A stretch of 30,125 nt of DNA from a virus. Its lineage: Duplodnaviria; Caudoviricetes. The stretch spans positions 1 to 30,125 of the IMG/VR virus record IMGVR_UViG_3300037237_000156; one strand, 5' to 3'. Both the position numbers and the translations under genes were made by a program. The notes below the pieces were generated by a model. That model had not been told where the DNA came from and ran no database searches. It was given only the letters and a program-made list of their open reading frames with translations. Below, one piece after another: positions 17,421 to 27,633 of this stretch. The number at the start of each line of letters is the position of its first letter. The stretch's first letter is position 1.

Positions 17421-20156
17421 ATGAAACGCTGGATTCCTGGCGCGCTCGCCGCGCTGCTGCTGCTGCCGTGCGCCCTCGCGCAGACGGGCTACGTGACGAT
17501 GACGGCGGCCAATCTGATCGACCAGAGCGGCGGCGGAGCCACGATCACGAATGCGACGGCGACGTTCTGTCTCGTGAATGCCGGCGGCACGCCGATCGGC
17601 GTGCATATCGGTTCGAGCTCCGGCGGCCAGGCCGCGCCCCGCTGTTCGTCGGGCCCGGTGAATAACGGCGCGCTGGTTGGGACGTGGCAGGCGGCCGACC
17701 CCACCGCCGCGGGCACGAATCTGGTACCGGACCCGATCCTGACGAGTTGGACGACGTGGTCGAATCCTGGGGCGGGCTGGAGCATTCAGCCAGGCTCGGT
17801 AGGGCTGGCGGGCGTCAATTTCTTCCAGTTAAACACGTCCGCGAATGGCACGAACGCGTATTCGCAGTCTGCTGCGATTACGGTGGTTCCAGGGCAGACC
17901 TATACGTTCACGGGGTATATGAACGCCCTTGATGTCACTGCTGGCAGCTTGTATTGGCAGGTGTGGGCCGAAGGTTCGGGGACGCAGTTGGGCGCGGTTG
18001 CGGCCACGCTGGGTGCGGTGGGGGGTTATTACACTGTCCAGTTCACTGTGCCGAGCGGGGTGACATCCGTTCTGGTGCGAGCCGTGATCAACTCGCTGGC
18101 GATTACGTCCGGTAACACCGCCGCATTCGCGGCACCGCTGCTGCAGGCCGGCAGCGCGCGGCTCGTCGATACCAACCTCAGCAACCCGCAGAATCCCTGC
18201 TATCAACTCACGGTCACCGACAACACCAGCGGCAGCGTCCTGCTGGGCGGACCGGGATCCGGGTACAGTTGCCTGCAGCCGCAATGGACGGAAAGCTCGC
18301 CGATGAGCTGCGTCGCCGGCCTCTGCAACCTTGACAGCTATATCCCGACGACTACGCCCGGGGTGATGATCGGGCTCGCCGGGCCAGTGGGTCCCACAGG
18401 GGCCACAGGGGCAACGGGGGCGACTGGAGCGACTGGGCTATCCGGCTCTGTCTCCGCTGCGGGGTCGGCTGGAACTGTGCAAACATCCAACGGCGCGGGC
18501 GGATTAAGTGCGGCAACGGTTGCGAACCTGGGCGCGGCTCTCTCCGATTCGAACGGGAATTATGTCCTGAATCGCTCTCCGACGTGGCCGATTAACAGCC
18601 TTCAGTCCGGGGCGGTGCTTCTCGGTGGCGCGTGCCCGCTGTATGGCAGCGGATCGCCAACGGCTGCCCAGGAAGGCGTGATTTGTATTGGTTGGCAGGC
18701 GGGGCAAAACCTGCTCTATGCCAACGGGAGTGTGTACATCGGCAATGATGCCGGGCAGTTTAAGGTAGGCTCAGCAAGCCTGGGCGGTGAAGATGGCAAC
18801 ATGACCTGCGTAGGTTCCTTCGCCTGTCAGGCGGACACTACCGGCGCAGAAGACGTTGTGTACGGGATGAAAGCCTATGAATTCGGCACGGGTGAGAACA
18901 GCAGCGTAATCATCGGAAACCACAACTACTACGAAGGCGGCGGGACCGATAACATCGACATAGGTTCGACGATTGCAGACTGGGCCAACACAGCCGGTAC
19001 AAACACTACATTCCTGGGAGGCACGAACAACGTCAACCTGGGTTCCCAGCTGTTTGCGGCCACCGGCCTGACCCCGAGTACAACCTATGTCGAGACGCAA
19101 TCGACGGTTGTAGGGTCCGGCGCGGGAGGCTGCCTCTTTAACACGGGTCCCAATCTTCTGTTGGGCGCTGGCGTGGCTGGGCCAGACAACGCCAGCGGTC
19201 TAGGTTCCCCATATCCGTGCACGGGCACACTGCCAACTGCACAGTACAACATCTTCATCCAGCCCGGGCCGAATGGGACAAACCCTAATGTAGGGCATTC
19301 CATCACAACAGGGTCCGCCAACATCGCGATGGGAACCGGCGGTACCTCAAACCCCTGGGGCGTCCCCGGTTCAGCACTGACGAGTGGCAACGGAAATACG
19401 ATCCTTGCCGCCGGAGCTGGGGCAAATGCCACGACAGCGAGCTGGCTGTCTTTGTATGGCATGGAAGCAGGGAGTGCACTGACCACGCCCAGCGGCATCA
19501 GTGCTTTCGGCGCGTGGGCACTCTATCGCTTGCAGACGGGCACACAGGACAGCGCCTTTGGGTTCCACGCCTGTGATGCGGCCACGGGCAGCGAGTCGCA
19601 GGATACCTGCCTTGGTGACACTGCCAATATTGTGGCAGGAGCGTCCAGGGCAACGGTGATTGGCCAGGCGGCCACAGCTGCGTATCAGAGCCTGGTCCTG
19701 GGGTACAGTGCATCAGACGCGGGCAGCAACGGTACCAATGTTGTGATCGGATATTATGCCGCGTGCACAGGTTCCGGTGAGCAATACAACACCATCCTGG
19801 GTGGCTCCTGCTCGGGCACTGGGACACAATATTCCCTCGCTTTAGGCTCTCATTCGGTTGTAGCAGCATCCGATGCTACGGAGATCAATGACAGTGGAGC
19901 TACAGCCACCAACAGCACCCAGCACACGCTCCAGTATGACTCGTGGAATTTTCTGACGAGCAGCGGAGCAGCCACCTTTCTAACTGCCACGATCACCGGG
20001 GCCGCGCCCAGCGTCACCACGGGGCAGCTTGGCATCGGCAGCAGCACGGTCACGACGGCGACAGCGGGAGCCGCCACGCTGCCCGCTAACCCACTAGGCT
20101 TTTTAACCTGGAATCTCGCCGGTACCGCCGTCAAGGTTCCGTACTACAGCAACTAA
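17421..20156 (+). CDS. Signal-peptide-bearing fibre/adhesin-like protein 1 (911 aa): CBM-like insert, short collagen, beta-solenoid repeats
   Basis: [29 protein letters not shown]; 9 Gly-X-Y triplets at 18372-18452; repeated (V/I)x(I/V)GxxA units; C-terminus LPANPLGFL.WNLAGT.VKVPYY. Confidence 0.82.
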   Translation: MKRWIPGALAALLLLPCALAQTGYVTMTAANLIDQSGGGATITNATATFCLVNAGGTPIGVHIGSSSGGQAAPRCSSGPVNNGALVGTWQAADPTAAGTNLVPDPILTSWTTWSNPGAGWSIQPGSVGLAGVNFFQLNTSANGTNAYSQSAAITVVPGQTYTFTGYMNALDVTAGSLYWQVWAEGSGTQLGAVAATLGAVGGYYTVQFTVPSGVTSVLVRAVINSLAITSGNTAAFAAPLLQAGSARLVDTNLSNPQNPCYQLTVTDNTSGSVLLGGPGSGYSCLQPQWTESSPMSCVAGLCNLDSYIPTTTPGVMIGLAGPVGPTGATGATGATGATGLSGSVSAAGSAGTVQTSNGAGGLSAATVANLGAALSDSNGNYVLNRSPTWPINSLQSGAVLLGGACPLYGSGSPTAAQEGVICIGWQAGQNLLYANGSVYIGNDAGQFKVGSASLGGEDGNMTCVGSFACQADTTGAEDVVYGMKAYEFGTGENSSVIIGNHNYYEGGGTDNIDIGSTIADWANTAGTNTTFLGGTNNVNLGSQLFAATGLTPSTTYVETQSTVVGSGAGGCLFNTGPNLLLGAGVAGPDNASGLGSPYPCTGTLPTAQYNIFIQPGPNGTNPNVGHSITTGSANIAMGTGGTSNPWGVPGSALTSGNGNTILAAGAGANATTASWLSLYGMEAGSALTTPSGISAFGAWALYRLQTGTQDSAFGFHACDAATGSESQDTCLGDTANIVAGASRATVIGQAATAAYQSLVLGYSASDAGSNGTNVVIGYYAACTGSGEQYNTILGGSCSGTGTQYSLALGSHSVVAASDATEINDSGATATNSTQHTLQYDSWNFLTSSGAATFLTATITGAAPSVTTGQLGIGSSTVTTATAGAATLPANPLGFLTWNLAGTAVKVPYYSN

Positions 20157-20168
20157 GAGGAGACACAA

Positions 20169-20555
20169 ATGAGGTACTTTCTTTATGCACTGCTGTTGAG
20201 TGCGGCCACACTTGCCGGAGCCCAGGTCAAGGGCACTATCGATTTCACACAGCCGCTGCACGGGCTAGACGGTAAGCCGATCCTGCTCACAGCGGAAAAG
20301 AACTCGCCCGCTGCTACGCTGGGCGATGTGGCGGTGAACGCGCTCGAATCGGTGACCGATCAGGACCGTGGCCTTACCGGACAGGTGAAGTTTCAGCGTG
20401 ACGAGCTGGCGCGCCACATCTATGGCAACAAGCACGCCGTGCTGTCCATCGAAGATGTATCGCTCATCAAGGACCGCATCGGCCAGGTCTATGGACCGCT
20501 GGTGGTGGGCGCGGCGTGGCCCCTGCTCGATCCAAGCATGAAGGCGGAGAATTAG
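20169..20555 (+). CDS. Signal-peptide-bearing putative fibre assembly chaperone
   Basis: GAGGAG SD; MRYFLYALLLSAATLAGA|Q; mature part IDF..L..LDG...TLG.VAVNAL...K..R..LA..I...LIK.RIG..YGPLVVG.AW.LLD resembles small proteins found downstream of phage fibre genes. Confidence 0.65.
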   Translation: MRYFLYALLLSAATLAGAQVKGTIDFTQPLHGLDGKPILLTAEKNSPAATLGDVAVNALESVTDQDRGLTGQVKFQRDELARHIYGNKHAVLSIEDVSLIKDRIGQVYGPLVVGAAWPLLDPSMKAEN

Positions 20556-26295: not shown

Positions 26296-26334
26296 AGAGG
26301 AGGAAGGGCGATGAGGAACATCAGGGAGGTTTCG

Positions 26335-27633
26335 ATGCAACGCTGGATGCTGGGATACGCGCTCGCCGCGCTGCTGCTGCTGCCGTGTGCCTTTGCGCAA
26401 ACGGGCACGGTGACGGTGTCCGCCTCGGGGTTGGTCAAGTACACGCCGGCGGGAGCGACGCCGCTCGACAATGCCACGATCACCTTCGCGCCGACGACGG
26501 CCGCCGGCGCGCCGATCGCGTATCAGATCGACGGCAACGGACAGGCGATGGATCTGCCGACGTCGGCGCAGGTGAGTGGCGGCGTGTTTTCGGTCATGCT
26601 GCCTGACACGAACCTCACTTATCCGCAGAACGTCTGCTTCGCGATCACGATCACCGATAACAACAGCGGCAACGTGCTGCTGGGAGGGCAAAATTCGGGG
26701 TATGGCTGCGTCCAGCCGGCATGGAATACAACGACGCCGAACACCTGGTGCCAGAGCGGCATCTGCAATTTCGATCAGTATCCGCCCACGTCGAGCGCAA
26801 TCGCGCTGCTGGCGACCGGGCCAACCGGACCCACTGGAGCTACAGGCCCAGCGGGACCCACCGGACCCACGGGCTTGACAGGGGCTGCGGGAACTAACGG
26901 CACGAATGGAGCGACAGGGGCCACGGGTCCAACCGGAGCAACAGGCCCCACAGGCCCAACGGGTGCGGCTGGTCCTAACAGTGTGAGCACGAGCACCACC
27001 ACGACACTCACGGGGCTGCTCAAGGGCAACGGGGCGAATGTCGGCGCGGCCACGGCGGGCACAGACTATGCAACGCCCGGTGGTAATGTGGCGACAGCGA
27101 CGGCTCTGGCCGCTACTCCGGGTCAGTGCCCCGCAGGACAAATTGCCACGGGCGTAACGGCGGCGGGTACGGCGAATTGTACAGCAACGCCCACGGTGAC
27201 GCAGTTAACGGCCACATCGCCCACCGCGATCACGAACGCCAACTGCCTCGCGGCGACTACGGTGAGCACGCCATGCGTGGCGTATCAGGGGACGTTTACC
27301 GCTCAAGGGTTGTCGGGTGGAACTGGGACAATCACGCTTTATACCTCTAACGCTCCGGCAAACGCAACGTTTCAATTCTGTCCCGAAATCTATCTCACTA
27401 CAGCCGCCTCAACCGCAACGTTGATTTCCAACGGAAGCTGGACCAGTCCTGGGGGGGCTGTCATCACAAATAGGAGTTTCACTTCAAACGGCGCTACCCC
27501 CGTCGGGCTGATTTCCGTTGCTTGCTTCGATTTCACGGTGAAGGCAAATACTTCAGCAACCCTCTCAGTCTTCGCATCGGGGAGCGGCTCTCCGGTCTGG
27601 GAGACGGAGCCGGTGGTCATCCGCCTGCACTAA
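26335..27633 (+). CDS. Signal-peptide-bearing collagen fibre-like protein 2 (432 aa)
   Basis: GGGAGG SD (alternative ATG 26311); [23 protein letters not shown]-domain homologous to fibre 1; 18 Gly-X-Y triplets at 26818-26979; GLLKGNG...ATAGTDY fibre motif. Confidence 0.85.

What the first reader, a model, noticed from the sequence alone, without database searches (positions are those of the whole stretch)
17421..27633. Candidate secreted-fibre system: two fibre paralogs and their chaperone all carry Sec signal peptides
Seen: fibre 1 (17421), fibre 2 (26335) and the chaperone-like gene behind fibre 1 (20169) all begin with a basic n-region, a hydrophobic h-region and an AxA|Q site. Both fibres share an N-domain with four aligned Cys (NPCY/NVCF, GYSC/GYGC, CVAGLC/CQSGIC), then collagen, then unrelated Cys-rich distal parts. 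Known: tail fibres and their chaperones normally fold in the reducing cytoplasm and lack signal peptides. Inference: these fibres are exported, trimerised and disulfide-bonded in the periplasm. They would then either dock on virions during lysis or act as prophage-encoded surface adhesins or receptor decoys. A co-exported chaperone argues against a chance hydrophobic N-terminus.
Basis: partly seen in the sequence, partly recalled or inferred. Interest (0 to 1): 0.88.

Follow-up and report, generated by a model that had tools for sequence, protein, structure and literature searches.

The report
Exported side fibres of Acidobacteria phage
A peat-soil bacterial virus puts what look like ordinary secretion signals and paired cysteines on two fibre proteins whose first domain is predicted to have the fold that anchors fibres to virus particles, so these parts likely fold outside the cytoplasm and would join the particle only when the cell bursts, a route that textbook phage assembly does not include.

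Summary

New here: leader-less versions occupy the same gene slot in other prophages and lack the Cys pairs (24 of 24 leader-bearing rows have a pair, 0 of 12 leader-less; sampling partly biased). The small gene's leader matches its upstream gene's in 15 of 15 classifiable loci, but a chaperone role is not shown and it is optional.

Best reading (0.55): side fibres that mature in the periplasm and dock on the virion at lysis. Docking is untested. Phage phi10:1 offers a precedent: leader-bearing proteins annotated as virion-associated by mass spectrometry. This scan has noted the phenomenon before on other phage DNA. Six literature searches found no description.

The parts
12020..12463 (+). Tail tube protein (context; candidate docking partner by analogy with lambda gpV)
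   Evidence: PF06199 E 2e-4, PHROG 158 major tail
14749..17310 (+). Tape measure protein (context; the fibre slot lies right behind it in most relatives)
   Evidence: PHROG tape-measure hits; gene order
17375..17401 (+). 11-bp terminator-like hairpin followed by a short U run, just before the F1 ribosome-binding site
   Evidence: z -4.35, 0 of 200 shuffles as stable; not listed by the consensus terminator scan
17421..20156 (+). Fibre 1 (911 aa): leader, split anchor-like N-domain, short collagen, repeat-rich shaft, phage-type tip
   Evidence: shaft 30% identical to L031 (E 7e-22) and tip 67% over 24 aa to Tunturi 3 gp15, annotated tail fiber
17421..17480 (+). F1 Sec-type leader, predicted cleavage ALA|Q
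   Evidence: heuristic; conservation
17685..18152 (+). 156-aa insert inside the F1 N-domain, likely a carbohydrate-binding module
   Evidence: the 51%-identical insert of L004 hits CBM_4_9 at E 4e-4, below cut-off; the window's own insert has no Pfam hit
18153..18350 (+). Second half of the F1 N-domain with the four conserved Cys
18372..18452 (+). F1 short Gly-X-Y run (about 9 triplets)
20169..20555 (+). Small exported fibre-partner protein of an unnamed phage family (chaperone role inferred only); leader 20169-20222
20576..20885 (+). Frame-shifted, start-less relic resembling fibre C-terminal tips
   Evidence: translations; likeness to tips of L010, L011, L026 judged by eye
20907..21548 (+). 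Distal tail protein (context; candidate docking partner by analogy with lambda gpM)
   Evidence: PHROG 1302 E 1e-30
22621..25710 (+). Central tail-tip fibre, leader-less (context: the particle has a cytoplasmic adsorption part)
   Evidence: PHROG 5616 E 3e-54, CBM_5_12; no leader
26335..27633 (+). Fibre 2 (432 aa): leader 26335-26397, anchor-like N-domain, collagen, distal part
26398..26790 (+). F2 N-domain: all-beta, four Cys, fold like phage fibre and collar anchors
   Evidence: model pLDDT 90.6
26818..26979 (+). F2 collagen, 18 Gly-X-Y triplets
   Evidence: PF01391 E 1.8e-8

Best explanation
The two genes likely encode accessory side fibres of a long-tailed temperate phage that are predicted to be exported by the host Sec system, cut before a glutamine and disulfide-bonded and trimerised in the periplasm, and that would then clip onto the finished virion through their anchor-like N-domain once lysis mixes the compartments. 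Shown: leaders, aligned Cys, collagen, gene position, and co-variation of leader with Cys pairs. Predicted: the anchor-like fold. Inferred: cleavage, disulfides and trimers. Untested: docking, for which the tail tube/distal tail junction is the best guess by analogy with Ur-lambda. The small gene likely encodes an optional fibre partner that must share the fibre's compartment. The fibres are probably not essential, since a leader-less central fibre is also encoded.
For: Leader conserved in 12 of 12 distinct close relatives. It is also present in 9 of 11 metagenome loci examined, some repeating earlier ones; one was cut and one unclear. Close relatives mapped lie in phage tail or lysis regions.

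Leader-less versions exist: 8 matches in 6 of 301 genomes. In G168 and G091 they sit between tape measure and tail-tip genes, exactly F1's slot. At least one aligned Cys pair is present in 24 of 24 leader-bearing rows and 0 of 12 leader-less rows (read by eye).

The small gene's leader agrees with its upstream gene in 15 of 15 classifiable loci. Precedent: phi10:1 gp091-094 are annotated structural by MS/MS and carry leaders.

Against: The first 13 leader-bearing rows were mostly found with Cys-containing patterns, which inflates the Cys contrast. One leader-bearing relative is Cys-poor (G194: 4 in 645 aa) and one leader-less relative is not (G086: 10 in 812). One origin of the leader-less state is not rejected (AU p 0.14). 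The phi10:1 proteins are unrelated to this family and Cys-poor, and co-purification cannot be excluded.
Confidence: 0.55

Rival explanations
1. The proteins are exported and disulfide-bonded but stay free. Made late and released at lysis, they act as soluble sugar-binding or coat-modifying proteins or as receptor blockers, and the anchor-like domain is only a retained folding or trimer base.
For: Export separates them from tail assembly. Position varies: after or before the tape measure gene, after the central fibre, or after the lysin gene. F1 tolerates a 156-aa insert within the domain. Esterase and lectin-like distal domains occur in relatives.
Against: The domain is conserved in every member while distal parts are swapped, as expected of a docking module. 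Leader-less twins, which cannot be secreted by Sec, occupy the same slot. The top fold matches are virion chains.
Confidence: 0.24
2. Lysogenic conversion: the prophage expresses them apart from the late operon as cell-surface adhesins or decoys, like Bdellovibrio MAT fibres.
For: MAT-like plan: leader, about 130-aa beta domain, mosaic fibre. A terminator-like hairpin precedes F1. An integrase-like gene and a tRNA-Lys lie nearby.
Against: No lipoprotein-type cleavage site, and no anchor or autotransporter domain in Pfam. No sigma-70-like promoter before either fibre. The family was found in only 16 of 301 host-family genomes, and 8 of 8 regions mapped were phage-like. Plaque-forming Tunturi 1 carries five leader-bearing genes in its tail region.
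Confidence: 0.1
3. The leader is leaky or uncleaved. A cytoplasmic or membrane-tethered fraction is what assembles on tails before lysis, and export is incidental.
For: It needs no new assembly route. Leader-less forms show that the domain works in the cytoplasm.
Against: Cleavage sites are conserved, and Cys pairs occur only in leader-bearing rows, which points to oxidative folding.
Confidence: 0.08
4. The hydrophobic N-termini are mis-called starts or chance.
For: Only a home-made heuristic was used, and it has false positives elsewhere.
Against: Ribosome-binding sites are present. Leaders differ in sequence but keep their anatomy across relatives, often with a stop codon a few codons upstream. 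0 of 17 core proteins were called.
Confidence: 0.03

Closest known systems
Ur-lambda side tail fibre gpStf, N-terminal collar domain (PF08400; PDB 9E7M; PMC12617516, passages read)
   Different: Leader peptide, Cys pairs, collagen shaft and unrelated tips. There is no significant sequence hit to PF08400, and docking is not shown. That Stf lacks a leader is recalled, not tested.
Cyanophage A-1(L) neck fibre (PDB 8KEG), Bxb1 tail tip (9D93), XM1 neck (7KJK), DEV collar (9COD)
   Different: Sequence identity 8-16%. They sit at different places on the virion (neck or tail tip), so the fold does not fix the docking site.
Bdellovibrio MAT fibres (PMC10769870; passages and section 10 read)
   Same: [quoted passage not shown]
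   Different: MATs are chromosomal predator adhesins, 21 copies, 13 with an S74 chaperone. These are prophage late-region genes with no S74 hit. Homology of the N-domains was not tested.
Cellulophaga phage phi10:1 gp091-gp094 (KC821618)
   Same: Leader-bearing genes at the tail end of an HK97-type late module, with Gln after the predicted cut. They are annotated 'structural protein' from MS/MS.
   Different: No homology to this N-domain or to the small protein, and 0-2 Cys. The underlying paper was not read.
Tunturiibacter phages Tunturi 1, 3, 4 (PMC11924767; passages read)
   Same: Cultured Acidobacteriota phages. Tunturi 1 gp12-14, 16, 17 and Tunturi 4 gp113-114 carry leaders. Tunturi 3 gp15 shares F1's tip.
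   Different: No significant match to this N-domain. Tunturi 3 has no leader in 27 proteins examined. The paper's main text has 0 occurrences of 'signal peptide'.
Q-rule signal-peptide proteins of Porphyromonas gingivalis phages (PMC10367356; passages read)
   Same: Phage genes with Sec leaders exposing Gln.
   Different: Unknown function, read by the authors as outer-membrane modifiers. They are not described as fibres in the passages seen.

Membership tests
Stf-type side tail fibre (PF08400 anchor) | Sequence match to PF08400 above cut-off | tested here: not met
   1 of 36 rows at E 0.041; window proteins none; Atlas feature hit 0.87, a lead only
Stf-type side tail fibre (PF08400 anchor) | N-terminal collar-type beta-sandwich fold | tested here: met
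Stf-type side tail fibre (PF08400 anchor) | Trimeric shaft behind the anchor | tested here: inconclusive
   Collagen implies a trimer; no trimer was modelled
Stf-type side tail fibre (PF08400 anchor) | Docks at the tail tube/distal tail junction | not tested
Sec/SPI substrates | Basic n-region, hydrophobic h-region, small-residue cleavage site | tested here: met
   Heuristic on window and relatives
Sec/SPI substrates | Actual translocation and cleavage | not testable with these tools
   Needs fractionation and N-terminal proteomics
Bdellovibrio MAT fibres | [quoted passage not shown] | tested here: met
   Architecture only
Bdellovibrio MAT fibres | Homology to the MAT N-domain | not tested
   No MAT sequence was fetched
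Bdellovibrio MAT fibres | Chromosomal multi-copy family outside prophages | tested here: not met
   1-3 matches in 16 of 301 genomes; 8 of 8 regions mapped phage-like
Tail fibre assembly chaperones (Tfa/gp38-type) | Sequence or fold match to a known fibre chaperone | tested here: inconclusive
   No Pfam or PHROG name; fold matches only unnamed viral proteins; comparison with solved structures could not be run
Tail fibre assembly chaperones (Tfa/gp38-type) | Small gene directly behind a fibre gene | tested here: met
   Most loci; exceptions L009, L098, L099/L100
Phage morons | Own promoter upstream and terminator downstream | tested here: inconclusive
   No sigma-70-like site before either fibre; hairpin upstream of F1 and none clear after F2; host promoter consensus unknown

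The most novel reading that the evidence does not exclude
Tailed phages of Acidobacteria run a second, periplasmic branch of virion assembly. Receptor-binding fibres, and a partner protein, are switched between cytoplasmic and exported forms by gain or loss of a signal peptide, gain disulfides when exported, and are added to the particle only at lysis.
Probability: 0.5. Interest if true: 0.88.

Novelty: new variant of a known kind. Interest (0 to 1): 0.72.

Why it matters
Tailed-phage particles are held to be built wholly in the cytoplasm (established knowledge, recalled). If these fibres mature in the periplasm and dock at lysis, phages can use disulfide-stabilised adhesins and enzymes. They could also recruit secreted host domains as fibre tips and keep cell-wall-binding parts away from assembling particles. 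This family adds a natural control, with matched leader-bearing and leader-less versions in the same gene slot. Cultured Tunturi phages with and without such genes make the question directly testable by virion proteomics.

Tried and rejected
Searches that found nothing. Word-indexed protein search with the N-domain: 0 of 1,448 candidates. No N-domain match in 50,697 GenBank phage records or PDB sequences; F1 gave only a collagen hit at E 0.53. The small protein was found in 0 of 401 genomes of the host class, with no positive control. Foldseek against PDB: no E<=0.001.

RNA. Short near-identical contigs in three peat or permafrost RNA libraries touch both fibres, the small gene and core tail genes alike. 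Contigs cannot rank genes or exclude DNA, so this neither supports nor refutes moron-type expression. Promoter and terminator scan counts were at chance level.

Tree. It needs 4 changes of leader state (shuffled mean 10.3), and three leader-less rows sit inside a mostly leader-bearing group (92/92). One leader-less clade is not rejected (p-AU 0.141) and the Cys-loop columns were left in, so repeated switching is not claimed as shown.

Readings rejected. A lipoprotein reading: the Cys in the F1 and F2 leaders follows Pro and is not conserved. The longer start at 17307: no support from relatives. The XepA lead from earlier notes was not followed.
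Full report
SETTING. The window is a 30,125-base virus record, identical over the overlaps to two IMG/VR contigs. It holds an HK97-type siphophage late region: lysin, terminase, portal, S49 protease, capsid, connectors, tail tube, tape measure, Dit, a hub-like protein, DUF6950 and a central fibre, followed by an integrase-like gene and a tRNA-Lys. 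The host is inferred to be Acidobacteriaceae, because the two genome-collection hits of the N-domain are Acidobacteriota MAGs. Near-identical DNA occurs in peat and permafrost libraries.

OBSERVATION. F1 (17421-20156), the small gene (20169-20555) and F2 (26335-27633) start behind plausible ribosome-binding sites. SignalP was not available. A tripartite heuristic calls all three, plus genes at 1646 and 13367, and 0 of 17 packaging, head, connector and core tail proteins. It gives some false calls on automatic starts elsewhere. F1 and F2 share an N-domain (51% over 123 aa, E 3e-28) with four aligned Cys. In F1 a 156-aa insert splits the domain. The same insert in L004 has a sub-threshold CBM_4_9 hit. 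Collagen is 18 triplets in F2 and about 9 in F1. Mature Cys counts are 16 and 10.

THE LEADER IS A FAMILY TRAIT. Pattern scans gave 12 viral loci (one the window's own contig), 2 genome loci and 13 metagenome loci, several of them repeats. All 12 distinct non-self proteins taken from the first two scans have a leader with Gln at or near +1. Of 11 metagenome loci examined (two left out as repeats), 9 show a leader, some with Thr at +1; one is cut and one unclear. Most sit directly behind the tape measure gene; others sit before it, after the central fibre or after the lysin. Distal parts differ widely and include SGNH esterases and a K1 tailspike C-terminal domain.

A NATURAL CONTROL. A profile search of 301 genomes of the host family hit 16, with 21 matches (one genome, G004, is unpublished and counts only in this tally). 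Eight matches in six genomes start with Met at the domain and have no leader. In G168 (793 aa, 5 Cys) and G091 (381 aa, 4 Cys; 198 aa, 0 Cys) they occupy F1's slot between tape measure and tail-tip genes. G290 has 4 Cys in 824 aa and G086 has 10 in 812. Leader-bearing relatives mostly carry 11-23 Cys in 630-1,520 aa, with one exception of 4 in 645. No statistical test was run.

In the 36-row alignment, read by eye, all four Cys are present in 17 of 24 leader-bearing rows. At least one of three aligned pairs is present in 24 of 24. None of the 12 leader-less rows has a complete pair. A caveat: the first 13 rows were mostly found with Cys-containing patterns. The pattern and the profile search had no such requirement. 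The tree needs four changes of state and places three leader-less rows among leader-bearing ones (92/92), but does not reject a single leader-less clade (p-AU 0.141).

THE SMALL GENE. The protein search gave 16 proteins including itself: 13 with a called leader, one more by eye, and two without. In viral contigs and one phage record, the leader state equals that of the gene in front in 15 of 15 classifiable other loci. Five have both with leaders (L007, L008, L010, L011, L089) and ten have both without (L013, L014, L015, L019, L090, L091, L093, L094, L102, HN02). Dropped were repeats, two cut loci (L012, L018) and three non-fibre contexts (L009, L098, L099/L100). Some loci are related, and some upstream genes are fibre-like only by eye. 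The protein models well (pLDDT 88.5) but matches only unnamed viral proteins. It was seen beside this N-domain family only here and in L008. It is thus an optional, compartment-matched partner, and chaperone is an inference.

PRECEDENTS. Cellulophaga phage phi10:1 gp091-094 are annotated as structural from MS/MS. Three of four pass my heuristic and the fourth has a similar leader. They are unrelated to this family and Cys-poor. Cultured Tunturi 1 (first 35 kb fetched) has five leader-bearing genes in its tail region and Tunturi 4 has two; Tunturi 3 has none in 27 examined. Bdellovibrio MAT fibres show that leader-bearing, phage-like trimeric fibres can work as bacterial adhesins (PMC10769870, section 10).

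MECHANISM. Best reading (0.55): late-expressed fibres are exported, cleaved, oxidised and trimerised in the periplasm, and attach to particles when lysis mixes the compartments. The leader-less central fibre makes them dispensable for assembly. The argument is that a domain kept in all members, with an anchor-like fold and cytoplasmic twins in the same slot, most simply still docks on the virion. Rivals: free released proteins (0.24), lysogen surface adhesins (0.10), a leaky or uncleaved leader (0.08), and artefact (0.03). RNA contigs do not decide.

NOVELTY. Six full-text searches aimed at this (listings seen, with passages read for PMC10367356 and PMC5723332) showed no description of signal-peptide-bearing phage fibres. 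The Tunturi paper's main text has no 'signal peptide'. Subscription journals are missing from the library. Supplements, such as the Tunturi annotation tables and MAT Supplementary Table 1, were not read and may bear on this. The scan itself listed eight similar findings on other DNA and none on this sequence family; these are unchecked notes, not support. Verdict: a real feature and a new variant of phage side fibres, with export well supported and virion docking open. Interest 0.72.

Noticed in passing
window 20576-20885: Start-less, frame-shifted relic that reads like one or two fibre C-terminal tips, perhaps debris of tip swapping.
   Followed up: partly
window 17375-17401: Strong hairpin with a U run after it and an A-rich stretch before it, possibly a two-way terminator that tunes expression of F1 and the tail-tip genes.
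   Followed up: partly
window 1646-2182: 178-aa leader-bearing gene behind the lysis genes with no family hit; looks by eye like a small outer-membrane beta protein.
   Followed up: no
window 13367-14125: Leader-bearing 142-aa gene and a membrane-anchored 86-aa gene between tail chaperone and neck genes, with a sigma-70-like site at 13810. A 31% relative lies in G290, and L028 has a leader-bearing gene near the same place. Moron-like.
   Followed up: no
window 16813-17118: The tape measure gene carries a duplicated C-terminal unit, about 81% identical over 144 bases.
   Followed up: no
window 22621-25710: The central fibre carries CBM_5_12 modules; CBM_5_12 also gives sub-threshold hits in leader-bearing fibres of L028 and L031.
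   Followed up: no
window 27920-30079: Integrase-like gene on the late-gene strand followed by a tRNA-Lys at 30004-30079, a likely attachment site.
   Followed up: no
L026 12403-14525; L025 13141-15384; L081 7503-8117; L082 9439-10140: Further unrelated leader-bearing genes, including a small coiled-coil-like one, cluster with the fibres in relatives.
   Followed up: no
L038 13003-13290; L079 11335-11613: Stand-alone, leader-less 92-95 aa versions of the N-domain or a look-alike, which may be separate collar subunits.
   Followed up: partly
L007 4991-7963; L011 3954-7893: In two podovirus-like contigs a leader-less N-domain-like gene precedes a leader-bearing Cys-rich gene, suggesting a cytoplasmic adaptor plus an exported spike.
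   Followed up: partly
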